Shown here: in pieces, positions 526 to 21,854 of the stretch
How the letters are laid out: the number at the start of each line of letters is the position of its first letter
Position numbering within the stretch: the stretch's first letter is position 1
DNA from: Escherichia phage W22
DNA length: 64,000 bases
Direction: 5' to 3' (one strand)
Sequence record: PV159336
Translations under genes and position numbers: made by a program
The notes under the pieces: generated by a model
Databases searched by the model: none
What the model saw: only the letters and a program-made list of their open reading frames with translations
What the model was told of the DNA's origin: nothing

Positions 526-936
526 TTAGAATTCAGAATCATCATCTCGTGATGGATCATGTTCATTTCCGAAGTCTTCCATTTTGATATGAGAGCTACC
601 CCAACCTGTAAAATCTTCTTCTCCAAAGTGCAAAATATCTACACCTTGATAGATTCGCTTATATTTATAGTCTTGTCGAACTGGGAAAGTATACAATGTA
701 GTATTTGCAAACACCACACGTCGATTGTTGTTACTACGAATATTAACACCACGTTCTACTGTATAATGTCCATCGGTAGACATACCAAGCATTACTAATG
801 CTGCTCGCAATGTGGTGTTATGATACTCGTGAGGAATTTTTCCTCCGTGCTTTTTAGCCATTTCTTTCCAGATCGGTGTAGCCTTAATGGTAGACATACT
901 TACGGTCGCCCAAATGGTTGTATTAATTAGTGACAT
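526..936 (-). CDS. hypothetical protein (136 aa)
   Basis: ORF track; abuts previous ORF with no gap. Confidence 0.4.
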   Translation of the reverse strand: MSLINTTIWATVSMSTIKATPIWKEMAKKHGGKIPHEYHNTTLRAALVMLGMSTDGHYTVERGVNIRSNNNRRVVFANTTLYTFPVRQDYKYKRIYQGVDILHFGEEDFTGWGSSHIKMEDFGNEHDPSRDDDSEF

Positions 937-1033
937 AAATTCTCCTTCTCTCTTTTAAGGAGAGCATAGCTCTCCTAACGTTAGCCTATACTACACGAAT
1001 CTCAATTAAAAGTCAACTATAATTTTAAGTTGA

Positions 1034-2005
1034 TCACCATTTTGTATGGTTCGTCAAAAGTTGACGATGTTGAATCCAACCACAGAAGTTTCCACTCCAC
1101 AAACGATGTTTACGATCCATATGTGTAATACCTTCTTCCCAGGAGGAAGGGAACGGAGGAATATTAATACCACCTTTCTGTTGTTTTAATCCTGACAAAT
1201 CCATTTCTTTCATTGGCGTTGCCTGGTGTTCAAACGGAGATGCATGTACCTTTTGTCCAGACAGCAAACGAGAATAGATATCCAATGCTTTATCTTTAGT
1301 ATCATTCAACTTACGATAACTTACCTGAGCGCAACAAGAAGCTGAAATAGCTTTTGCTTCGTCTTCTGTCAACATTTTCTCGTTGGAGAAGGTTTCACCC
1401 AAGAAATAACGGATCATACCAGTTTCTGGATCTCGATCACGATTAACGTAAGGTGTATGCCATTCCCCTGGGAAAAGAAGATATGGTTCAGAAGATTCAT
1501 ACAGTTTTTTAATTTCTTTAGCAAGAGCCTCAATAGTTGGATCTGCATCAGCATCTACGCGCAACCACAAGAAGTTTTCTAGCTCTGTAGTGGTTACTAC
1601 AGTCTTCATACGCTGAAATGGTTCTAGTAGGCGGTTTGCAACCTGTTTATGATAACCAGCAAGGGCAAACTCTTCTGCAAAACGTGCAGCACTTAGCGCA
1701 GCCAAGTCCCACCATTCTTTTGCAGTGTAACCTGCATCAATCAGGGCATCGTGATCTGTGCCTTTATCTTGCATACCTGGTTGGTTAGCACCAAAACGAT
1801 AAGGACGTGCTGGAGATTGCCGTACCATTTCAATCAGGGTTTTAACAGGGATAGCTCGACTTGATGCGGCATTACGAGAAAACAAACGATGCGTCATCAA
1901 TTCAGAGTGAATGATTCGAGGATATTCAAGTTCAAAGGTAACAATATCCTTACCTTCGGATGTTTGAGAGTGTGCAATAATTTTTGCTGAAATAGAATTT
2001 GTCAT
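1034..2005 (-). CDS. thyX: flavin-dependent thymidylate synthase ThyX
   Basis: 323 aa; ThyX signature RHR....S present as MTHRLFSRNAASSRAIP. Confidence 0.85.
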   Translation of the reverse strand: MTNSISAKIIAHSQTSEGKDIVTFELEYPRIIHSELMTHRLFSRNAASSRAIPVKTLIEMVRQSPARPYRFGANQPGMQDKGTDHDALIDAGYTAKEWWDLAALSAARFAEEFALAGYHKQVANRLLEPFQRMKTVVTTTELENFLWLRVDADADPTIEALAKEIKKLYESSEPYLLFPGEWHTPYVNRDRDPETGMIRYFLGETFSNEKMLTEDEAKAISASCCAQVSYRKLNDTKDKALDIYSRLLSGQKVHASPFEHQATPMKEMDLSGLKQQKGGINIPPFPSSWEEGITHMDRKHRLWSGNFCGWIQHRQLLTNHTKW

Positions 2006-2014
2006 TATTTCTCC

Positions 2015-2605
2015 TTAAGGTAGTAAAATACTTTCAATTTCTTCCCACTGATTATCTAAACCAGTGATAATTACATTAGGAAGTTTCTTTAACTCTTCCA
2101 AATATGGATCTTCGTAAATAGTGTTGAAATATATTTTCAACGTTTCATCTGGAAACAGGACAAGATTTTCAGCCCTATCGTCAATAGTTACATCGCAAGG
2201 TAATAAGTATTTTTCTTTTGTTGCGAAAAAACCATTACCAGATGTTCTACTAAAATCCACTTTATCTAAAGATCGTGTTACGTGTCTATATTTAGAACTA
2301 AGGTGTCCACCCTTAGTGTGACTCGCTATAGATATATTAGCTCCATTTGCAATTATACGATGAACAACATCTGTACTATTAGGTACTACTCCCATAGTAT
2401 CATATAGATGTTGGTTATCCCAAAAAGAGTAAGGATCTACACCAAATTGCTTTTTAAAATCAGGGAAATATTTCGTAATATCATAGTGCACAGTTTTATG
2501 TGTCTTATCAAATTTGATATTAGATCTACTTACCGCATTTAACCAATTTAACCATTCTATATCCGCTGGAGCTATTACTAAATCCCAATCACATACTAGA
2601 CGCAT
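2015..2605 (-). CDS. hypothetical protein in nucleotide-metabolism neighbourhood (start trimmed to internal ATG with AGGAG RBS)
   Basis: ORF track gives 2015..2719; the Met at 2603-2605 is preceded by ATAACAGGAGAAATA and removes most of the overlap with tdk. Confidence 0.45.
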   Translation of the reverse strand: MRLVCDWDLVIAPADIEWLNWLNAVSRSNIKFDKTHKTVHYDITKYFPDFKKQFGVDPYSFWDNQHLYDTMGVVPNSTDVVHRIIANGANISIASHTKGGHLSSKYRHVTRSLDKVDFSRTSGNGFFATKEKYLLPCDVTIDDRAENLVLFPDETLKIYFNTIYEDPYLEELKKLPNVIITGLDNQWEEIESILLP

Positions 2606-3152
2606 TATTTCTCCTGTTATAACATTTTCTACACATTGTTTCGTAAATGTCTTCTCCTCCAATAACAATCTGTTCTTTAGAGTCGATAAGTCTAGCATTG
2701 AAAATAGCTTTTCTTCCACATTTACAAATGCTTTTCAATTCTGTAATTGAATCTGCTATGGCTAATAACCGTTCAGAACCTTCAAACAATTCTGTAGCAA
2801 AATCTGTTTTAAGTCCATAGCAGAATACAGGAATATCGTAATTATCTACCACATCTCCAAGAATGTCAACCATATCTTTAGTTAGGAATTGTGATTCGTC
2901 CACAAATACTGCATCTACGGGATTTTCTTTAAGTTGTGTATAAATTTCCAGCATATCTTCTTTTGTTTTAACTGGTTTTGCTTCCTCTTTAATACCTATC
3001 CTGGAAGCAATAGCACCACCAGATCTGGTATCTAAAGCTGAAGTTAAAAGAAGAACTTTCATATTTCTTTCTTTATAGTTCCAAGCTGTTTGTAGAAGAT
3101 GTGTGCTTTTACCACTGTTCATCGGACTATATCGGAAATAAAGTTTAGCCAT
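2589..3152 (-). CDS. tdk: thymidine kinase
   Basis: 187 aa; P-loop MNSGKST near N-terminus; C-terminal Cys cluster CKCG...CRKC typical of Tdk zinc ribbon. Confidence 0.85.
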   Translation of the reverse strand: MAKLYFRYSPMNSGKSTHLLQTAWNYKERNMKVLLLTSALDTRSGGAIASRIGIKEEAKPVKTKEDMLEIYTQLKENPVDAVFVDESQFLTKDMVDILGDVVDNYDIPVFCYGLKTDFATELFEGSERLLAIADSITELKSICKCGRKAIFNARLIDSKEQIVIGGEDIYETMCRKCYNRRNNASSM

Positions 3153-3197
3153 ATTTTCTCCTCTAACGCTCCCGTTTGTGGGAGCGATAATACTTTA

Positions 3198-3773
3198 TTA
3201 TTTCTCTTCGTCAAGAAGAATTTTTACTATTTGTTTTCTTCGCTTACTTACTGTACTTTCTGGTGAAATTCCGCGCTTCGTTAGCCAATTTTTATCCTTT
3301 TTAGACTGGCATAAAGCTATCGCTTCCTTCTCCGCTTTTGCTTCCCTGAATGTCATATCGTGCTTGTCAGCATAAGCCAAGATAGCGTTACACTGCTTAC
3401 AAACTACACGCAGGTCGTCTTCTGTTACATACAATAGGCGTAAAACAAAACTTGGGATATCTTCATAACAGGTTAATGTACCTGCTGCATTAATATGGTC
3501 TACTTGAAAGTCTTTCATACCTCCTGTATGTCCACACAATTCACATTGACAATTCCAAACCTGTTTCGGTTTGCCTGTTTTCTTATCTAAAACTACATTG
3601 CCATCTTTATCCAACCTATCGGCTTTAAATCGTACAGATTGGATCTTTTTTATCTTATTCGGGTGTCTCACCCATGCTTTCCTTAAGCAGCCCCTTAAAT
3701 ATGTATAAAAGGCTGCTTGAGTTTTCCAAGGTGTTCCATCTCCCCAAATAACTTTAGGTTCTTTATTTTCCAA
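3198..3773 (-). CDS. HNH endonuclease
   Basis: 191 aa; CQCELCGH...FQVDHINAAG...CKQCN matches the HNH Zn-finger / DH catalytic motif arrangement. Confidence 0.6.
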   Translation of the reverse strand: MENKEPKVIWGDGTPWKTQAAFYTYLRGCLRKAWVRHPNKIKKIQSVRFKADRLDKDGNVVLDKKTGKPKQVWNCQCELCGHTGGMKDFQVDHINAAGTLTCYEDIPSFVLRLLYVTEDDLRVVCKQCNAILAYADKHDMTFREAKAEKEAIALCQSKKDKNWLTKRGISPESTVSKRRKQIVKILLDEEK

Positions 3774-8884: not shown

Positions 8885-10000
8885 TTACTCTGCTGGTTCC
8901 CAAGTACCTGGAATCATCTTACGTACACGTACCCCAACAGGCTTGGTAGGAATACCTTCGTCTGAAAATTCTTCGTACTCAATTTCAACAAATTGACCAA
9001 TAAGTGTCAAAGCATTTTCTTCTTTACGATAGTTAATGGTTTCATCTGAATCCTTACGCATCAGGAATTCGACTACTTTACCATTTTCCATCTCGCCTGT
9101 CAATACCCCGTCACCATTTTTATCACGCTTTGCACTTACCACCTTAACTTCAAGCGTCTGCCGTGGTTTACGTTTAATAACATCATAAGAACGTTTATCA
9201 AACTCGTAAACACCTTGTGCATTACGATACACCACACCTTCCGCTTTCTCACGCAGAGCTTTTGCATAGAATTCATCAAACTGCTCTTGGTTTTCAATGT
9301 ACTCTGTATGTACTACACAAATAAGTTCGTCTAAACCTTTATCTTGAACAACTTCTTTTAGAGCAGCCAAAACTTCAACCCTCTTCTCAAATGGTACAGA
9401 TGGCACAGGAACATCATATACATAGTATTTAAGAAGCGGAGTGTTAGCATTATGCTTTTTCCACGCACTATTAATTTGTTGAAGGCTAAGAACACCCAAA
9501 CCAGCAAAAACTTCACCATCAAGAGGATGACCAACTACTTCTTTAATGAAGGTTGGAATTTCTTTCCAGTGAGGTGGAAGTTTATATACTTCCCCAGCTT
9601 TAGATAAGCATTCACCTTGCATGTTAATCATTGAACGTAGACCATTCAATTTATACTGTGCATAACCTGGGAACAAAACACGATCAGCATAATCTTTATA
9701 ATCCTGACATTTCATGGGTGTGGAAGGAACATGGTTTTCAGCTTCCTCTTTTGTTTTATAATACCCATTCTTAAGTTGCTTTGTCCATTTGGCAAGAGCT
9801 TCTATTTCAGCTTGTTCTTCTGCTGTTGTTTCATTTGAGCGACCAATATTTTTAGGTTCTGCTGTATAAGATTTGCTAGTAATCTTTCCACCTAATTGAC
9901 CATGAGCAACAGTTACAACACTACCTTCGGTATAGACTGACCACTGTTTAATTTTACCTGTAGAAGTTTTACCATACAATGTAGGATTAGTTTGTTTCAT
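8885..10000 (-). CDS. ATP-dependent DNA ligase
   Basis: Nucleotidyltransferase motifs KLNGLR (I), LDGEVF (III), EGVVYR (IV), VIKRK (V) plus C-terminal OB-like region; start trimmed to ATG 9998-10000 with GGAGG RBS. Confidence 0.65.
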   Translation of the reverse strand: MKQTNPTLYGKTSTGKIKQWSVYTEGSVVTVAHGQLGGKITSKSYTAEPKNIGRSNETTAEEQAEIEALAKWTKQLKNGYYKTKEEAENHVPSTPMKCQDYKDYADRVLFPGYAQYKLNGLRSMINMQGECLSKAGEVYKLPPHWKEIPTFIKEVVGHPLDGEVFAGLGVLSLQQINSAWKKHNANTPLLKYYVYDVPVPSVPFEKRVEVLAALKEVVQDKGLDELICVVHTEYIENQEQFDEFYAKALREKAEGVVYRNAQGVYEFDKRSYDVIKRKPRQTLEVKVVSAKRDKNGDGVLTGEMENGKVVEFLMRKDSDETINYRKEENALTLIGQFVEIEYEEFSDEGIPTKPVGVRVRKMIPGTWEPAE

Positions 10001-10190
10001 CTTTAACCTCCAGTTGCGAAAGAACCCATTTAGCCATTTCAATTTCACCGTGTAGTCTGCCTAGTTCATAGGCATCATCAATATTACCACCAGTGTAATC
10101 ATCCACCATAAAGTAAGGATCTTCACTACTGTTAGGTGCGTTTGCAATTCTCGTTAGTTCTTCAATAAATGTCATAGTTACCCTTACCAA
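9987..10190 (-). CDS. hypothetical protein (67 aa)
   Basis: ORF track. Confidence 0.35.
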   Translation of the reverse strand: MVRVTMTFIEELTRIANAPNSSEDPYFMVDDYTGGNIDDAYELGRLHGEIEMAKWVLSQLEVKDETN

Positions 10191-18973: not shown

Positions 18974-19049
18974 GGTTCCATAGCTCACTGACGAGAGCGC
19001 ACACCTCATAAGTGTCGAGGGCAGGGATTGTAACCCTGGGGAACCACCA
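18974..19049 (+). tRNA. tRNA, anticodon CAT (Met or Ile2), atypical T-loop
   Basis: Manual fold: acceptor GGTTCC/GGAACC, anticodon loop CTCATAA, CCA encoded. Confidence 0.45.
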
Positions 19050-19080
19050 TTTAAAAGGAGGTGCTATGCATCTCCTATAT

Positions 19081-19166
19081 GCAAGTGTGGTGGAATTGGT
19101 GATACACATTGTGCTTAAAACGCAACGCTTAAATGCTTGAGGGTTCGAATCCCTCCACTTGCACCA
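19081..19166 (+). tRNA. tRNA-Leu (anticodon TAA)
   Basis: Manual fold: acceptor GCAAGTG/CACTTGC, loop CTTAAAA, long variable arm, T-loop GGTTCGAATCC, CCA. Confidence 0.6.
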
Positions 19167-19168
19167 AC

Positions 19169-19273
19169 GCCTAGTAGGGTATTTGGTAATTCCGAGGCCA
19201 TCAAAGCCTGAAAAATATGTTAGACCGCTTTGTCTAACTAAATACGAAATATGGTTCGATTCCATAACTAGGC
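19169..19273 (+). ncRNA. atypical tRNA-like element (about 105 nt; possible UCA anticodon; no CCA)
   Basis: Perfect 7-bp acceptor GCCTAGT/ACTAGGC, T-arm TATGG-TTCGATT-CCATA, anticodon-like hairpin with loop CATCAAA, 7-bp extra arm GTTAGAC/GTCTAAC. Confidence 0.3.
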
Positions 19274-19306
19274 TTCAATTTAAATAATAATTTTAGTAAA
19301 AATATC

Positions 19307-19335
19307 TTGACATTCACTTAGTTTTTTGTTATAGT
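19307..19335 (+). promoter_or_regulatory. sigma70-like promoter (TTGACA, 17 nt, TGt-TATAGT)
   Basis: Near-consensus promoter inside the tRNA cluster. Confidence 0.5.
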
Positions 19336-19345
19336 TACTGTGAAA

Positions 19346-19427
19346 ACGGGGTGTATCTCACCTGACTTCTAATCAGGCGTTAACCGAGTAATTGGAGTAT
19401 GCAGGTTCGAATCCTGTCACCCCGACC
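19346..19427 (+). ncRNA. atypical tRNA-like element (anticodon-like loop CTTCTAA, no recognisable D-arm)
   Basis: Perfect acceptor CGGGGTG/CACCCCG plus ACCA, T-arm GCAGG-TTCGAAT-CCTGT, hairpin CCTGA-CTTCTAA-TCAGG only 7 nt after the acceptor. Confidence 0.35.
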
Positions 19428-19446
19428 AAAAAGTTTTTAAAAACTA

Positions 19447-19475
19447 CTTGACAAGCAAGATAGTTTTATGTTAGA
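19447..19475 (+). promoter_or_regulatory. sigma70-like promoter (TTGACA, 17 nt, TGt-TAGATT)
   Basis: Sequence match inside the tRNA cluster. Confidence 0.45.
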
Positions 19476-19491
19476 TTTAAAGTATGATAAC

Positions 19492-19581
19492 GGGAAGGTA
19501 GGGCGCAGCGGTGCGCAACCAGGTTTGAACCCTGGCCCATTGTAGCGATACGGTGATGGTTCGACTCCATTATCTTCCTCC
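19492..19581 (+). tRNA. tRNA-Ser (anticodon TGA)
   Basis: Manual fold: acceptor GGAAGGT/ATCTTCC, stem CCAGG/CCTGG with loop TTTGAAC, long variable arm, CCA. Confidence 0.55.
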
Positions 19582-19600
19582 AAATTCAACTAGGAGCTTT

Positions 19601-19753
19601 ATGAATTATAAAACTATTGGACAGGTTGTTACCGGAGTTAAGATTGTAGATAATAAAGTTGTTTATGAGTATTCTAATCTTCAACAATCTGAAGATGGTA
19701 AGAATATTCGTATGGTAAAAGCAGAACAAAAAGATTCCGGTTGTTTTGAATAA
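19601..19753 (+). CDS. small hypothetical protein (50 aa)
   Basis: ORF track 19553..19753 overlaps tRNA-Ser; internal ATG after AGGAG RBS chosen. Confidence 0.35.
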   Translation: MNYKTIGQVVTGVKIVDNKVVYEYSNLQQSEDGKNIRMVKAEQKDSGCFE

Positions 19754-19761
19754 TTAAGAAC

Positions 19762-19847
19762 GGTAGATTGGTGAAATGGTAGCCACAACAGTTTGCTAAA
19801 CTGTCGTCGGAAACGGCGTGTAGGTTCAAGTCCTACATCTACCGCCA
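19762..19847 (+). tRNA. tRNA-Ser (anticodon GCT)
   Basis: Manual fold: acceptor GGTAGAT/ATCTACC, stem ACAGT/ACTGT loop TTGCTAA, long variable arm, discriminator G, CCA. Confidence 0.6.
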
Positions 19848-19974
19848 AGTTATCTTTAATGTAGCTTGTAATCTTACTTTAATAGAGTAAACTTTCGGCA
19901 GATGGCCCCCCACCATCTTACCGATATCCCATAGTCAAGTGCCGCAAACACTGGCTATTTTAAAGATAATTTAT

Positions 19975-20050
19975 ACATCGTTAGCTTAGTTGGTAGAGCA
20001 AGGGGCTTTTAACTCCAAGGTCGAAGGTTCGAATCCTTCACGATGTACCA
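19975..20050 (+). tRNA. tRNA-Lys (anticodon TTT)
   Basis: Manual fold: acceptor ACATCGT/ACGATGT, D-arm GCTTAGTTGGTAGAGC, loop CTTTTAA, T-loop GGTTCGAATCC, CCA. Confidence 0.6.
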
Positions 20051-20055
20051 AACAC

Positions 20056-20142
20056 GTAGGTATCGCATAGCGGCAATTGCTGGAGACTGTAAATCTCTTG
20101 CCCTTCGGGGCTTCGTTGGTTCGAGTCCAACTACCTGCACCA
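20056..20142 (+). tRNA. tRNA-Tyr (anticodon GTA)
   Basis: Manual fold: acceptor GTAGGTA/TACCTGC, stem GGAGA/TCTCT loop CTGTAAA, long variable arm, CCA. Confidence 0.6.
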
Positions 20143-20149
20143 AATTAAA

Positions 20150-20234
20150 GATGGATTGGCCTAGTGGTTGGGCGACGGACTGTTAATCCGTGAACGAAAG
20201 TTCTAGCAAGGTTCAAATCCTTGATCCATCGCCA
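20150..20234 (+). tRNA. tRNA with Asn anticodon GTT on a class-II (long variable arm) scaffold
   Basis: Manual fold: acceptor GATGGAT/ATCCATC, stem ACGGA/TCCGT loop CTGTTAA, 15-nt variable arm GAAC-GAAA-GTTC, discriminator G, CCA. Confidence 0.45.
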
Positions 20235-20241
20235 GAATTAT

Positions 20242-20318
20242 GGACTTGTAGAGTTAAGGTAAACCTCCAGTCGCCAAGAGGCTTCTGGAATTGCAGGTAT
20301 CGAATCCTGCCGAGTCCA
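20242..20318 (+). ncRNA. atypical tRNA-like element (anticodon unresolved, 8-nt T-loop, no CCA)
   Basis: 7-bp acceptor GGACTTG/CGAGTCC and T-arm GCAGG-TATCGAAT-CCTGC; no clean anticodon arm found. Confidence 0.3.
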
Positions 20319-20324
20319 AGTATT

Positions 20325-20399
20325 GCTCCTATCGTATAACGGCTATTACGGTTGCCTTGTAAGCAACTTATCAGGGTTCGAGTCCTTGTGGGAGCACCA
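20325..20399 (+). tRNA. tRNA-Thr (anticodon TGT)
   Basis: Manual fold: acceptor GCTCCTA/TGGGAGC, stem GTTGC/GCAAC loop CTTGTAA, CCA. Confidence 0.6.
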
Positions 20400-20416
20400 A
20401 TTTTAACTCTAAAGGA

Positions 20417-20746
20417 GTGTATGTGACAGAAAAAGAGTTAGAGAAATATTTTAATATCAATGTTTTCGATGGTTTTGATGATATTGAAGATGTTGAAAGA
20501 TATTATGAAGTAGAGTTAGATAAGGATAACATTGTAATTCTTTCTGCCACTTATGATTGTGCATATTATGAAGGTGAATCTCACGTTTATTTTTATGATA
20601 TGAAAACATCTTTGTTTTATGAAGTACACGCATATCATTGTTCTTGTTATGGCTTAGAAGGTCAGTGGGAACCTGAAGAAATAGGTGATTTGGACTTTAC
20701 TATTGCATATCTAAACAGACGTGGTGCATCTACTATTTTAAAATAA
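20417..20746 (+). CDS. hypothetical Cys/His-containing protein inside the tRNA cluster
   Basis: ORF track (109 aa); GTG start region after AAGGAG RBS; motif HAYHCSCYG. Confidence 0.45.
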   Translation: MYVTEKELEKYFNINVFDGFDDIEDVERYYEVELDKDNIVILSATYDCAYYEGESHVYFYDMKTSLFYEVHAYHCSCYGLEGQWEPEEIGDLDFTIAYLNRRGASTILK

Positions 20747-20760
20747 ATATCAAAAGCCTC

Positions 20761-20789
20761 TTGACAAAGGGGCTAATAATATGTTAGAG
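20761..20789 (+). promoter_or_regulatory. sigma70-like promoter (TTGACA, 17 nt, TGt-TAGAGT)
   Basis: Sequence match upstream of tRNA-Gly. Confidence 0.45.
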
Positions 20790-20801
20790 TAATATTGTTA
20801 A

Positions 20802-20876
20802 GCGGGTATAGTGTTAATGGTAGCATATGAGGTTTCCACCCTCCAGGTGCAGGTTCAAGTCCTGTTACTCGCTCCA
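20802..20876 (+). tRNA. tRNA-Gly (anticodon TCC)
   Basis: Manual fold: acceptor GCGGGTA/TACTCGC, loop TTTCCAC, T-loop GGTTCAAGTCC, CCA. Confidence 0.55.
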
Positions 20877-20975
20877 AGATTATTTAAATGGAATCGCTAG
20901 AGAAAATTTCTCTTTTCGCTCATGGTTTTCTCCTTCAAACTCTAGCGGTTCTTTTTAAGTGATTTTTAGTTTTAT

Positions 20976-21050
20976 TGGAGATTAGCCTAGTGGGAAGGCA
21001 ACGGCCTTTGAAGTCGTGATGACTAGGTTCGATTCCTAGATCTCCAGCCA
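20976..21050 (+). tRNA. tRNA-Gln (anticodon TTG)
   Basis: Manual fold: acceptor TGGAGAT/ATCTCCA, stem ACGGC/GTCGT loop CTTTGAA, T-loop GGTTCGATTCC, CCA. Confidence 0.55.
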
Positions 21051-21057
21051 GTATTTA

Positions 21058-21133
21058 CAGTGCGTAGCGCAGTTGGTAGCGTGGGAGCTTTGGATGCTTC
21101 GGGTCGCAGGTTCGAGTCCTGCCGCACTGACCA
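21058..21133 (+). tRNA. tRNA-Pro (anticodon TGG)
   Basis: Manual fold: acceptor CAGTGCG/CGCACTG, D-arm GCGCAGTTGGTAGCG, loop TTTGGAT, T-loop GGTTCGAGTCC, CCA. Confidence 0.55.
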
Positions 21134-21138
21134 AATTT

Positions 21139-21213
21139 GCAGAGATAGCTGAGACGGATTAGTGCTACCCTGAAAAGGTAGAAAGGATGGATCGTTACCA
21201 TCTCTCTGCACCA
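21139..21213 (+). tRNA. tRNA-Phe (anticodon GAA), atypical T-loop
   Basis: Manual fold: acceptor GCAGAGA/TCTCTGC, stem CTACC/GGTAG loop CTGAAAA, CCA. Confidence 0.5.
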
Positions 21214-21289
21214 AATAACACCATCCAAGGAGTAGACTTGGTTAACTGTCAATAGCACATTGAGGCTTCTTACAGTGGTGTATTTTTAT

Positions 21290-21374
21290 GGCTAAGTGGT
21301 GGAATGGTATACACGATACGCTTAGAACGTATTGCCCCAAGGGATTGTGAGTTCGAGTCTCACCTTAGCTACCA
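21290..21374 (+). tRNA. tRNA-Leu (anticodon TAG)
   Basis: Manual fold: acceptor GGCTAAG/CTTAGCT, stem ATACG/CGTAT loop CTTAGAA, long variable arm, CCA. Confidence 0.6.
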
Positions 21375-21462
21375 TATCTAAGAGATATCATAGGGTTTGC
21401 AACGGATATCTACCGTCCTGTTAAGGATACCACGCCAAGACGGGTTATAAAGGGTTAGCCAT

Positions 21463-21538
21463 TGATAGTGTGAAGCTGGCGTTTCGAGTGCTTTCATAAG
21501 GCATTGCGAGAAGAGTTCGATTCTCTTACTATCAACCA
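21463..21538 (+). tRNA. tRNA, anticodon CAT (Met, fMet or Ile2)
   Basis: Manual fold, 76 nt: acceptor TGATAGT/ACTATCA, loop TTCATAA, T-arm AAGAG-TTCGATT-CTCTT, CCA. Confidence 0.55.
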
Positions 21539-21553
21539 AATTACTACAGATTG

Positions 21554-21632
21554 CGCGGGATAGAGGAGTCTGGTCGTCCTCGCCAGTTTCATATGCTGGA
21601 GATCGTAGGTTCAAATCCTACTCCCGCCTCCA
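21554..21632 (+). tRNA. tRNA, anticodon CAT (Met, fMet or Ile2)
   Basis: Manual fold: D-stem GAGG/CCTC, stem CCAGT/GCTGG loop TTCATAT, T-loop GGTTCAAATCC, CCA; one acceptor mismatch. Confidence 0.45.
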
Positions 21633-21697
21633 ATAAATACCTCCCTTCTGGTGTAATGATTAAGTTACATTGACACTTCAAGGAACTTATAGCCGGG

Positions 21698-21773
21698 TAG
21701 ATTTAAAAGAGTATGGTACTCAATATGGCTCCAAACCATAGATCAAGGGGTTCGATTCCTCACCTTGCTGCCA
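21698..21773 (+). ncRNA. tRNA-Trp-like element (anticodon-like loop CTCCAAA) with unpaired acceptor
   Basis: Perfect stem TATGG/CCATA with loop CTCCAAA, T-arm with TTCGATT loop, 3' CCA; no complementary 5' acceptor strand found. Confidence 0.3.
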
Positions 21774-21778
21774 ATTAT

Positions 21779-21854
21779 TGTGGTATCGTACAGATGGTTA
21801 GTACACTCGACCGATAATCGAGAAACAACGGTTCGACTCCGTTTACCACGACCA
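21779..21854 (+). tRNA. tRNA-Ile (anticodon GAT)
   Basis: Manual fold: acceptor TGTGGTA/TACCACG, D-arm GTACAGATGGTTAGTAC, stem CTCGA/TCGAG loop CCGATAA, T-loop GGTTCGACTCC, CCA. Confidence 0.55.

What the first reader, a model, noticed from the sequence alone, without database searches (positions are those of the whole stretch)
20150..20234. Class-II-shaped tRNA carrying an Asn (GTT) anticodon
This element folds with a perfect anticodon stem (ACGGA/TCCGT) and loop CTGTTAA, but also has a 15-nt variable arm forming a GAAC-GAAA-GTTC hairpin and a G discriminator. Long variable arms are normally confined to Leu, Ser and Tyr (and Sec). If it is charged according to its Ser-like body it could misincorporate at AAC/AAU codons; alternatively it is a true Asn tRNA with an insertion.
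Basis: inference. Interest (0 to 1): 0.5.

Follow-up and report, generated by a model that had tools for sequence, protein, structure and literature searches.

The report
Phage asparagine tRNA with extra arm
This is a real phage asparagine tRNA carrying an extra hairpin arm normally seen only in leucine, serine and tyrosine tRNAs. The same design recurs, with compensating base changes, in hundreds of unrelated phages, so the arm is probably selected; its purpose, possibly protection from bacterial tRNA-cutting defences, is untested.

Summary
Window 20150-20234 (+) is an 85-nt tRNA with anticodon GTT, G73, an encoded CCA and a 15-nt variable region (GAAC-GAAA-GTTC hairpin plus TAG). The window is a phi92-like E. 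coli myophage, and the gene sits in a tRNA cluster.

- **Recurrence.** The same architecture occurs in at least four phage lineages (phi92/phAPEC8, PVP-SE1, T5-like, T4-like), in at least 526 GenBank phage records, and in diverse uncultivated viral contigs.
- **The arm is a real helix.** It is 98% paired, and three of its four pairs show changes on both sides.
- **Arm shape.** Its geometry (3-4 bp stem, three unpaired 3' bases) matches phage tRNA-Tyr, not tRNA-Ser.
- **Asn features.** The E. coli asparagine identity set (G34 U35 U36, G73) is complete, and the anticodon arm is nearly identical to host tRNA-Asn.
- **Ser features.** This copy also has six of the seven published bacterial serine determinants, lacking G2-C71. 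My anticodon-blind isotype score does not rank it as Asn.

Most likely it is a working Asn tRNA whose added arm is under selection, perhaps against host tRNA nucleases; that last step is inference. Serine mischarging is unlikely but not excluded. I found no published description of this architecture.

The parts
20150..20234 (+). Complete tRNA-Asn(GUU) gene with extra arm, 85 nt including the encoded CCA
   Evidence: ARAGORN; Rfam tRNA 56.5 bits; fold
20150..20156 (+). Acceptor stem 5' strand GATGGAT (G1-C72, A2-U71, U3-A70, G4-C69)
   Evidence: Sequence; ARAGORN bracket structure; 7 of 7 pairs covary across homologues
20159..20173 (+). D arm GCC(U)-AGUGGUU-(G)GGC: 3 bp plus a possible U13.G22 pair, short loop, C11-G24
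   Evidence: D-region length compared with Ser, Leu and Tyr
20175..20191 (+). Anticodon arm ACGGA-CUGUUAA-UCCGU. It matches E. coli tRNA-Asn at 13 of 14 compared positions (anticodon left out), and its positions 36-41 read UAAUCC as in the host
   Evidence: host 36-41 sequence from PMC12409363
20182..20184 (+). Anticodon GTT (reads AAC and AAU)
   Evidence: ARAGORN, anticodon at position 33
20192..20203 (+). Extra-arm hairpin GAAC-GAAA-GTTC (4 bp plus a GNRA tetraloop), starting directly after the anticodon stem
   Evidence: compensatory changes in homologues such as GAGA/TCTC, GAGT/ACTC, GTTC/GAAC, GTCA/TGAC
20204..20206 (+). Three unpaired bases TAG between the extra arm and the T stem; the middle A is nearly always kept in the family
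   Evidence: A56 is at least 90% conserved; a three-base linker is typical of Tyr, not Ser
20207..20223 (+). T arm CAAGG-UUCAAAU-CCUUG
20224..20234 (+). Acceptor 3' strand ATCCATC, discriminator G73 (20231) and encoded CCA (20232-20234)
   Evidence: G73 in 40 of 42 distinct family members
19448..19477 (+). Promoter-like site TTGACA-18-TAGATT with TG extension. It is the nearest strong upstream candidate for the transcript carrying Ser, Ser, Lys, Tyr, Asn and Thr
   Evidence: Consensus scan only; function not shown
19975..20142 (+). Immediate upstream neighbours tRNA-Lys(UUU) and tRNA-Tyr(GUA); tRNA-Thr(UGU) follows at 20325-20399. The host versions of these tRNAs are reported targets of PARIS (Lys, Thr, Asn) and of Septu/retron-Eco7 (Tyr)
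   Evidence: ARAGORN; PMC12409363; PMC13096335

Best explanation
This is a functional phage-encoded tRNA-Asn(GUU).

- **Expression (inferred).** It is transcribed within the phage tRNA cluster and needs no CCA addition, because CCA is encoded.
- **Charging (inferred).** Host AsnRS most likely charges it with asparagine. In E. coli that enzyme reads the anticodon G34-U35-U36 and the discriminator G73.
- **Decoding (inferred).** It then reads AAC and AAU, which make up 5.7% of codons in this 38%-GC phage.
- **The extra arm (shown).** The 12-nt hairpin plus 3-nt linker is not an accident of this genome. It is a conserved module on a core with a short D arm, held in one geometry (no 5' spacer, 3-4 bp, usually a GAAA loop, 3-nt 3' linker), which is the geometry of phage tRNA-Tyr.
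- **What the arm is for (inferred).** It changes how host tRNA-binding proteins see the molecule. The leading candidates are defence nucleases that dock on the anticodon stem, variable region or D loop of host tRNA-Asn, such as PARIS AriB. The arm would do this while leaving AsnRS, EF-Tu and ribosome use intact.
For: **A real tRNA with a conserved arm**
- It is a genuine, well-folded tRNA.
- All helices keep pairing through compensatory changes in 32 homologues, including the extra arm at 98% paired.
- The architecture occurs in Stephanstirmvirinae, Vequintavirinae, Demerecviridae and Straboviridae.
- At least 526 GenBank phage records hold a match spanning the arm.
- It is also found in 36 of 120 viral-contig pattern hits, against 0 of the first 120 hits in cellular genomes.
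- About 7-9% of a length-unbiased sample of viral tRNA-Asn have such an arm.

**Asparagine identity**
- The Asn identity set (G34, U35, U36, G73) is complete. Transplanting it converts tRNA-Lys to Asn identity (PMC9976931).
- G73 is present in 40 of 42 family members.
- Full-length relatives found by similarity are almost all annotated tRNA-Asn, and the seven I read all have GTT.
- The anticodon arm matches host tRNA-Asn at 13 of 14 positions.
- Twenty of 42 family members have the U1-A72 first pair of E. coli tRNA-Asn, and 23-26 of 42 score as Asn when the anticodon is hidden.

**Against serine charging**
- The arm geometry is Tyr-like. Three or more unpaired 3' bases occur in 74% of long-arm Asn, 77% of Tyr and 8% of Ser. 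Stems of 5 bp or more occur in 5%, 5% and 69% respectively.
- The window's clade keeps A2-U71 instead of the G2-C71 serine determinant.
- Asn codons are 56.6 per 1000, so wholesale Ser insertion would be very costly.

**Defence context**
- Host tRNA-Asn(GUU) is cut by PARIS AriB between positions 40 and 41, and phage tRNAs rescue infection (PMC12409363).
- Variable arms are already a known battleground: Septu and retron-Eco7 cut the tRNA-Tyr variable arm, and T5 tRNA-Tyr escapes through a different arm (PMC13096335).
- In this window the phage Lys and Thr tRNAs differ from the host at positions 39-41. The Asn tRNA keeps the host UAAUCC and instead carries the arm.
Against: - No experiment addresses the charging, expression or nuclease resistance of any long-arm tRNA-Asn.
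- The PARIS rescue experiments used phage T5's own tRNA-Asn, which I found has no long arm (78 nt).
- This copy's body is not Asn-like in my surrogate isotype score: Ser 40.9, Gln 40.7, Tyr 34.5, Asn 25.3 bits. Its nearest neighbours are Ser tRNAs at 71% identity.
- It carries six of the seven bacterial Ser determinants.
- The anticodon stem keeps the host AriB cleavage-site sequence, so resistance, if any, would rest on the arm or the D loop alone.
- Other enterobacterial phages carry host-like tRNA-Asn without a long arm, so the arm is not required.
- From general knowledge, class II synthetases such as AsnRS approach tRNA from the variable-region side, so the arm could interfere with charging.
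Confidence: 0.6

Rival explanations
1. It is a true Asn tRNA whose arm is a tolerated, essentially neutral insertion with no function of its own. The arm persists because removing it would disturb a co-adapted core.
For: - Viral tRNA clusters show general looseness in the variable region. Hairpin arms occur at 1-9% in many isotypes that normally lack one, and only 54% of viral tRNA-Leu have a long arm.
- Host-like tRNA-Asn without the arm serves other enterobacterial phages.
- In T5-like phages the arm-less allele and the long-arm allele replace each other at the same position after tRNA-Cys.
Against: - One precise geometry (no 5' spacer, 3-4 bp, GAAA, an N-A-N linker) is kept across lineages whose acceptor stems share almost nothing.
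- The arm helix is 98% paired, with many changes on both sides.
- A neutral insertion would be expected to decay or vary in length and position.
Confidence: 0.14
2. SerRS charges it wholly or partly because of its long arm, G73, C72, C11-G24 and G30-C40. It then inserts serine at AAC/AAU codons, giving ambiguous decoding.
For: - Six of the seven bacterial Ser determinants listed in PMC9976931 Table 1 are present.
- SerRS ignores the anticodon.
- The anticodon-blind score puts Ser first, and the nearest neighbours are Ser tRNAs.
- Precedent: nematode nev-tRNAs carry a long arm with a non-Leu, non-Ser anticodon (PMC3333845); from general knowledge they are charged with Leu.
Against: - G2-C71 is described as absolutely conserved in E. 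coli tRNA-Ser. Here it is replaced by A2-U71, which is conserved in this clade.
- The arm has 4 bp and a three-base 3' linker, which is Tyr-type. Ser-type arms are mostly 5 bp or longer with one base or none. E. coli SerRS is reported to recognise tertiary shape.
- Across the family 2:71 is C-G in 12 of 42 (an anti-SerRS element in E. coli tRNA-Leu) and 1:72 is U-A in 20 of 42. The family is therefore not kept as a SerRS substrate.
- Asn codons make up 5.7% of phage codons.
- The strong AsnRS determinants would compete for the tRNA.
Confidence: 0.08
3. Its main role is not decoding. It acts as a decoy or sponge that binds and occupies a host tRNA-targeting effector, or another tRNA-binding protein, and so spares host tRNA-Asn or tRNA-Tyr.
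For: - The PARIS authors raise the possibility that overexpressed viral tRNAs inhibit AriB by competition.
- Phage tRNA-Tyr partly suppresses Septu cleavage of host tRNA-Tyr.
- This tRNA combines a host-identical Asn anticodon arm with a Tyr-like extra arm and G34-U35.
- The cluster also holds tRNA-like RNAs with no usable anticodon.
Against: - A perfect acceptor stem, G73, an encoded CCA, a canonical 7-nt anticodon loop and the GUU anticodon are all conserved. That is what a translated tRNA needs and more than a decoy needs.
- Asn codon demand in the phage is high.
Confidence: 0.08
4. It is a degenerate or recombinant pseudogene, or a prediction artefact.
For: Broken relatives exist. Phage Bas34 (SelmaRatti) carries the 5' part of a long-arm Asn gene fused to the 3' end of a tRNA-Met-like gene, with a mismatched acceptor stem.
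Against: - All five helices are intact.
- The sequence is identical in at least 20 listed phage genomes, and 52 records match it at 99% or better.
- More distant relatives keep pairing by compensatory change.
Confidence: 0.02

Closest known systems
Ordinary bacterial tRNA-Asn(GUU), e.g. E. coli asnT/U/V/W
   Same: Anticodon GUU, loop CUGUUAA, G73, and an almost identical anticodon arm (13 of 14 compared positions). The decoding task is the same.
   Different: - The host tRNA has a 5-nt variable loop (AUGUC) and is 76 nt long.
- The acceptor stems are unrelated (1 of 15 positions): the host has U1-A72, this copy G1-C72.
- The D arm sequences differ.
Bacterial and phage long-arm tRNA-Tyr(GUA)
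   Same: - The extra-arm geometry is the same: 3-4 bp stem, tetraloop, three unpaired 3' bases.
- It shares G34 and U35; the anticodon differs by one base.
- In this window it is the adjacent gene.
   Different: - Tyr has A73, and G73 is an antideterminant for TyrRS.
- Tyr has A36.
- Tyr has a longer D region.
- Body similarity to the window's own tRNA-Tyr is only 53%, and Tyr is rarely the nearest neighbour within a locus (1 of 29).
Bacterial tRNA-Ser
   Same: Long arm, G73, C72, R4-Y69, C11-G24, G30-C40. A GAAA-capped arm with no 5' spacer also occurs in this window's tRNA-Ser(GCU).
   Different: - It lacks G2-C71.
- Its arm is shorter and has three unpaired 3' bases rather than one or none.
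- Its anticodon is not a serine anticodon.
Nematode nev-tRNAs: long-arm tRNAs with a unique non-Leu, non-Ser anticodon (PMC3333845)
   Same: A long variable arm combined with an anticodon of an amino acid whose tRNAs normally lack one.
   Different: - From general knowledge, nev-tRNAs are tRNA-Leu derivatives and are charged with Leu.
- Here the determinants of the synthetase matching the anticodon (AsnRS) are all present, and half of the family has the U1-A72 first pair of E. coli tRNA-Asn.
- This family is viral, not nuclear.
Phage T5 tRNA-Lys, tRNA-Thr and tRNA-Asn that neutralise PARIS, and T5 tRNA-Tyr that escapes retron-Eco7/Septu (PMC12409363, PMC11555353, PMC13096335)
   Same: - They are phage tRNA-cluster genes for isotypes whose host copies are cut by defence nucleases.
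- T5 tRNA-Tyr escapes through an altered variable arm.
- The genomic setting is the same: Lys, Tyr, Asn and Thr lie side by side.
   Different: - T5's own tRNA-Asn has no long arm; it has a divergent, mismatched anticodon stem instead.
- None of those papers mentions an Asn tRNA with an extra arm ('variable' occurs 0 times in PMC12409363).
- Resistance of the long-arm form is untested.
allo-tRNAs and tRNA-Sec (non-canonical long-arm tRNAs; PMC5389517, PMC7609411)
   Same: A long variable arm, G73, and unusual anticodons found in bacteria and their phages.
   Different: Those have 8/4 or 9/3 acceptor/T-stem layouts and are SerRS substrates. This tRNA has the standard 7/5 layout and an Asn identity set.

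Membership tests
tRNA (Rfam RF00005) | Cloverleaf with 7-bp acceptor stem, D arm, 5-bp anticodon stem with 7-nt loop, and 5-bp T stem with a GTTCRANYC-type loop | tested here: met
   56.5 bits against a gathering score of 29; ARAGORN; the minimum-free-energy fold is a cloverleaf; 96.4% of cells paired across 32 homologues
E. coli-type tRNA-Asn (AsnRS substrate) | Anticodon G34, U35, U36 | tested here: met
   GTT at 20182-20184; determinants from PMC9976931 Table 1
E. coli-type tRNA-Asn (AsnRS substrate) | Discriminator G73 | tested here: met
   G at 20231; G in 40 of 42 family members
E. coli-type tRNA-Asn (AsnRS substrate) | A37 in a U36-A37 context (the position that is modified in the host tRNA) | tested here: met
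   The loop CUGUUAA is identical to the host's. Whether it is actually modified cannot be tested here.
E. coli-type tRNA-Asn (AsnRS substrate) | Short (about 5-nt) variable loop and an Asn-like body | tested here: not met
   The variable region is 15 nt. In the anticodon-blind score Asn ranks seventh or eighth for this copy. The acceptor matches E. coli tRNA-Asn at 1 of 15 positions.
E. coli-type tRNA-Asn (AsnRS substrate) | Actually aminoacylated with asparagine | not testable with these tools
   Needs an aminoacylation assay or analysis of charged tRNA from infected cells
Bacterial tRNA-Ser (SerRS substrate) | G73 and C72 | tested here: met
   G73 and G1-C72; determinants listed
Bacterial tRNA-Ser (SerRS substrate) | G2-C71 (described as absolutely conserved in E. 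coli tRNA-Ser) | tested here: not met
   A2-U71 here and in all 5 distinct members of this clade; statement on conservation
Bacterial tRNA-Ser (SerRS substrate) | R4-Y69, C11-G24, G30-C40 | tested here: met
   G4-C69, C11-G24 and G30-C40 read from the sequence; list. G30-C40 is also present in host tRNA-Asn.
Bacterial tRNA-Ser (SerRS substrate) | Long variable arm of serine-type size and orientation | tested here: not met
   Here the stem is 4 bp and three 3' bases are unpaired. In 75 viral tRNA-Ser, 69% have stems of 5 bp or more and 79% have one unpaired 3' base or none. Orientation itself was not modelled.
Bacterial tRNA-Tyr (TyrRS substrate) | A73 plus G34 and U35 | tested here: not met
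   G34 and U35 are present but the discriminator is G. All 43 viral tRNA-Tyr have A73, and G73 is listed as an antideterminant for TyrRS.
Long-arm (class II) tRNA architecture | Variable region of 10 nt or more forming a stem-loop | tested here: met
   15 nt with a 4-bp stem and a GAAA loop; covariation
Long-arm (class II) tRNA architecture | 3-bp D stem with an enlarged D loop | tested here: inconclusive
   ARAGORN draws 3 bp with a 9-nt loop. The free-energy fold and the Rfam alignment both pair at least a fourth base pair (U13.G22), leaving a short loop of 5-7 nt. The D region (positions 13-22) is 9-10 nt in long-arm Asn and mostly 10-12 nt in Ser, Leu and Tyr.
Phage nuclease-resistant replacement tRNA (as T5 tRNA-Lys against PARIS) | Substitutions at or near the cleavage site (positions 39-41) relative to the host tRNA | tested here: not met
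   U36-A-A-U-C-C41 is identical to host tRNA-Asn. The window's Lys (UAACUC) and Thr (UAAGCA) do differ from the host.
Phage nuclease-resistant replacement tRNA (as T5 tRNA-Lys against PARIS) | Resists cleavage and rescues infection under the defence system | not testable with these tools
   No published test of a long-arm tRNA-Asn was found. The T5 tRNA-Asn used in PMC12409363 has no long arm.

The most novel reading that the evidence does not exclude
Extra arms grafted onto tRNAs that normally lack them may be a general, so far unrecognised phage counter-defence device.

- **Where it is seen.** Asn is the most prominent case. Thr(UGU), Lys(UUU), Ile, Met and Glu in viral tRNA clusters also carry such arms.
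- **Proposed action.** The arm would act as structural armour that stops immune tRNA nucleases docking on the anticodon-stem, variable-region and D-loop face. Candidates are PARIS AriB, OLD-family Toprim enzymes and PrrC/RloC-type or colicin-like enzymes.
- **What is spared.** The arm would have a Tyr-type orientation that synthetase, EF-Tu and ribosome still accept.
Probability: 0.22. Interest if true: 0.8.

Novelty: new variant of a known kind. Interest (0 to 1): 0.55.

Why it matters
- **It breaks a textbook rule.** In bacteria, long variable arms are said to be confined to Leu, Ser, Tyr and Sec tRNAs. Here a widespread, conserved group of tRNA-Asn breaks that rule in well-studied coliphage groups, and is annotated without comment in hundreds of GenBank records.
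- **If AsnRS charges it,** a class IIb synthetase tolerates a fifth arm. That is useful for tRNA engineering and for understanding synthetase docking.
- **If the arm blocks defence nucleases,** it is a new, structure-based route of immune evasion. It would sit beside the anticodon-stem point mutations and gene amplification already described, and would help predict which phages escape tRNA-targeting defences.
- **If SerRS charges it,** that would be programmed Asn-to-Ser ambiguity in a virus.

All three outcomes can be tested directly with a short transcript and purified E. coli enzymes.

Tried and rejected
- **Using the PARIS rescue data as functional evidence: rejected.** Phage T5's own tRNA-Asn is a 78-nt tRNA with no long arm and a mismatched anticodon stem.
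- **Bas34 as a natural test of the long-arm form against PARIS: rejected.** Its copy is a chimera with a tRNA-Met-like 3' end and a broken acceptor stem. ARAGORN does not call it.
- **Origin by duplication of the neighbouring tRNA-Tyr or tRNA-Ser with an anticodon change: not supported.** Identity to the window's Tyr is 53% and to Ser(GCU) 65%. Across 29 loci the nearest isotype is most often Lys, and Tyr only once.
- **A rule that long-arm copies keep host-like anticodon stems while arm-less phage copies diverge: not supported.** Host-like arm-less tRNA-Asn exists in other enterobacterial phages.
- **Copies in E. coli genomes or prophages: none found.** There was no match at E up to 10 in 5,426 genomes.
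- **Prior description in the literature: none found.** Searches on tRNA-Asn with variable arm, V-arm or extra arm plus phage, and on isotype mismatch, found nothing. Subscription-only papers are not covered.
- **tRNAscan-SE isotype models: not available.** I used my own position-specific score instead (70-74% cross-validated accuracy). It is only a surrogate.
Full report
**What is there.** The window is a phi92-like (Justusliebigvirus, Stephanstirmvirinae) E. coli myophage. The 3-kb tRNA region is 99% identical to phages EC.P2 and ECGD1. ARAGORN finds 16 tRNA genes at 18974-21854, all on the + strand, and calls 20150-20234 tRNA-Asn(gtt), 85 nt. The Rfam tRNA model scores it at 56.5 bits (gathering score 29) and places the surplus bases as an insertion between the anticodon and T arms. 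The minimum-free-energy and centroid folds are a cloverleaf plus a fifth hairpin, at -29.5 kcal/mol; 3 of 200 shuffles fold as well. Read directly:
- acceptor GATGGAT/ATCCATC
- D arm GCC(U)-AGUGGUU-(G)GGC
- anticodon arm ACGGA-CUGUUAA-UCCGU
- variable region GAAC-GAAA-GUUC plus UAG
- T arm CAAGG-UUCAAAU-CCUUG
- G73, with CCA encoded

**It is a conserved design, not an accident.**
- BLAST with the 85 nt finds 154 phage records. The more distant hits have the same layout with different arm sequences:
  - Klebsiella phage phi1_175008: GAGA/TCTC
  - Salmonella PVP-SE1: GAGT/ACTC
  - phAPEC8: GTTC/GAAC
  - T5-like Lindwurm: GTC/GAC
  - Proteus Stubb and Providencia PSTCR5
- The T4-like phage CC31 has GTCA/TGAC.
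- Starting from the Lindwurm copy, 695 records match, and 526 of them span the arm.
- A structural pattern fixed only the anticodon loop, one G, GAAA and GGTTC. It recovered 36 genuine long-arm tRNA-Asn in 120 viral-contig hits, with very diverse acceptor stems.
- In a length-unbiased viral sample, 7 of 104 distinct GTT tRNAs have a variable region of 10 nt or more with a hairpin. Two further long-arm copies lie in loci that were hit again.
- On an alignment of 32 distinct members the five-helix structure is 96.4% paired, against 64% in shuffles and 35-46% when partners are slid.
- The extra arm is 98.1% paired. Its inner pairs are U-A 14 / A-U 13 / G-C 3; C-G 10 / G-C 7 / U-A 4; and C-G 9 / A-U 6.
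- The 3' half of the arm was not constrained by the search pattern. ARAGORN may still favour paired arms, and the 5' G and the GAAA loop were imposed for most members.

**Whose arm is it?** I compared variable-arm geometry in the same viral data set.

| Measure | Ser | Leu | Tyr | Long-arm Asn |
|---|---|---|---|---|
| Stem of 5 bp or more | 69% | 26% | 5% | 5% |
| Three or more unpaired 3' bases | 8% | 14% | 77% | 74% |

- The arm is Tyr-type, not Ser-type.
- The D region is shorter (9-10 nt) than in Ser, Leu and Tyr (mostly 10-12). The free-energy fold and the Rfam alignment both allow a fourth D-stem pair, U13.G22.
- Descent from a neighbouring Tyr or Ser gene is not supported. The window copy is 53% identical to its own tRNA-Tyr, 65% to Ser(GCU) and 69% to Gln. 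Across 29 loci the nearest isotype is most often Lys.
- The picture is a core with a short D arm that bears a Tyr-style arm.

**Which amino acid?**
- Published E. coli rules (PMC9976931) give Asn identity as G34, U35, U36 and G73, and this set can be transplanted into tRNA-Lys. All are present here.
- The anticodon arm matches E. coli tRNA-Asn at 13 of 14 compared positions. I verified the host sequence in 5,425 of 5,426 genomes.
- Serine identity is G73, C72, G2-C71, R4-Y69, C11-G24, G30-C40 and a large variable region. This copy has all of these except G2-C71, where A2-U71 is conserved in its clade. Its arm is not serine-shaped.
- An anticodon-blind position-specific score trained on about 1,250 viral tRNAs reaches 70-74% cross-validated accuracy. 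It assigns 23-26 of 42 long-arm members to Asn. It ranks this copy Ser 40.9, Gln 40.7, Tyr 34.5 and Asn 25.3 bits.
- Against serylation at family level: U1-A72 in 20 of 42 members, C2-G71 in 12 of 42, and G73 kept in 40 of 42. Full-length relatives found by similarity are almost all annotated tRNA-Asn, and the seven I read all have GTT.
- Asn codons make up 56.6 per 1000 in the window's 51 long ORFs. From memory, the E. coli figure is about 39 per 1000. Serine insertion at these codons would damage most phage proteins.

**What might the arm do?** This part is inference.
- Host tRNA-Asn(GUU) is a target of the PARIS nuclease AriB, together with Lys(UUU) and Thr(UGU). AriB cuts between positions 40 and 41 and is modelled as also gripping the D loop. 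Phage T5 tRNAs for these three isotypes neutralise PARIS (PMC12409363).
- Septu and retron-Eco7 cut the variable arm of host tRNA-Tyr, and T5 tRNA-Tyr escapes through a different arm (PMC13096335).
- In this window Lys, Tyr, Asn and Thr lie side by side.
- The phage Lys and Thr tRNAs differ from the host at positions 39-41. The Asn tRNA keeps the host UAAUCC and carries the arm instead.
- That fits an arm that changes nuclease docking, but nothing tests it directly.
  - T5's own tRNA-Asn has no long arm.
  - Bas34's long-arm copy is a broken chimera.
  - Host-like arm-less tRNA-Asn exists in other enterobacterial phages.

**Comparison with known things and novelty.**
- The gene is routinely annotated tRNA-Asn, for example in phi92. 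I found no paper that remarks on the architecture. A review of non-canonical tRNAs does not mention phages at all.
- The nearest precedents are:
  - nematode nev-tRNAs, which also carry a long arm with a non-Leu, non-Ser anticodon;
  - allo-tRNAs;
  - the altered variable arm of T5 tRNA-Tyr.
- I rate this a new variant of a known kind. Long arms on other isotypes that normally lack them also occur at 1-9% in viral tRNA clusters. That makes Asn less unique but the phenomenon broader.

**Verdict.**
- Probability that it is Asn-charged with a selected arm: about 0.6.
- Probability of serine mischarging: about 0.08.
- Interest: 0.55.

Noticed in passing
window 20242-20318 (+): A tRNA-like RNA lies between tRNA-Asn and tRNA-Thr. 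Its acceptor and T arms are good, but the anticodon arm is replaced by a longer closed hairpin (CCAG-UC-GCC-AAGA-GGC-UU-CUGG), so there is no 7-nt anticodon loop and no encoded CCA. Rfam tRNA scores 30.4 bits only when a small region is searched, and ARAGORN is silent. The fold z-score is -4.1. It is about 97% identical in phAPEC8, whose Asn gene is only about 75% identical, and it is absent from the Klebsiella relative. It could be a decoy or a stable tRNA-like RNA of the kind annotated in phage T5.
   Followed up: partly
window 19347-19428 (+): A tRNA-Arg(UCU)-like gene has no D arm: only 7 unpaired bases separate the acceptor and anticodon stems. It carries a long extra arm CCGA-GUAA-UUGG and an encoded CCA. 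Rfam tRNA scores 40 bits, above the gathering score; ARAGORN does not call it. A strong promoter-like site (TTGACA-17-TATAGT with TG) lies at 19307-19335.
   Followed up: partly
window 19169-19273 (+): A tRNA-like RNA of about 105 nt has an acceptor stem GCCUAGU/ACUAGGC and a T arm (AUGG-UUCGAUU-CCAU) enclosing a long insert with its own 7-bp hairpin. It resembles the 'tRNA-like stable RNAs' annotated in T5.
   Followed up: partly
L366 (Escherichia phage SelmaRatti = Bas34, MZ501103.1) 401-483: The annotated tRNA-Asn of Bas34 is the 5' three-quarters of a long-arm tRNA-Asn fused to a tRNA-Met-like 3' end, so its acceptor stem cannot pair. This may explain why Bas34 needed plasmid-borne T5 tRNA-Asn to escape PARIS in PMC12409363.
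   Followed up: yes
Viral loci L007-L364 (e.g. L021 Thr 87 nt; L051 Lys 89 nt; L117 Glu 89 nt; L270, L272 and L296 Ile(UAU) 90-92 nt): Hairpin extra arms also occur on other isotypes that normally lack them in viral tRNA clusters: Ile 8.6%, Met 6%, Thr 3.7%, with single cases in most others. Conversely, only 54% of viral tRNA-Leu have a long arm.
   Followed up: partly
L365 (phage T5, NC_005859) 9953-10030 compared with L004 (Lindwurm) 295-377: T5-like phages carry one of two unrelated tRNA-Asn alleles at the same position after tRNA-Cys. One has no long arm and a mismatched anticodon stem (about 134 records at 95% identity or more). The other is the long-arm form (about 256 records at 95% or more). 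In T5 a 519-nt ORF (T5.069) sits between Cys and Asn and overlaps the tRNA.
   Followed up: partly
window 19493-19582 (+): tRNA-Ser(UGA) has U73 instead of the usual G73, like the T5 tRNA-Ser1 that the T5 record describes as an effective suppressor after anticodon replacement. Rfam scores it best as tRNA-Sec, below threshold at 35.3 bits.
   Followed up: no
L368 (phi92, NC_023693) 680-3378, the region upstream of the tRNA cluster: In phi92 the tRNA cluster lies directly downstream of PRPP synthetase and nicotinamide phosphoribosyltransferase genes (NAD salvage). From general knowledge such genes counter NAD-depleting defences, which hints that this is a counter-defence neighbourhood.
   Followed up: no
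window 21710-21770 (+): A weak tRNA-like match (Rfam 22.9 bits, below the gathering score) with no stable fold (z = 0.39). It is probably a decayed tRNA remnant.
   Followed up: partly
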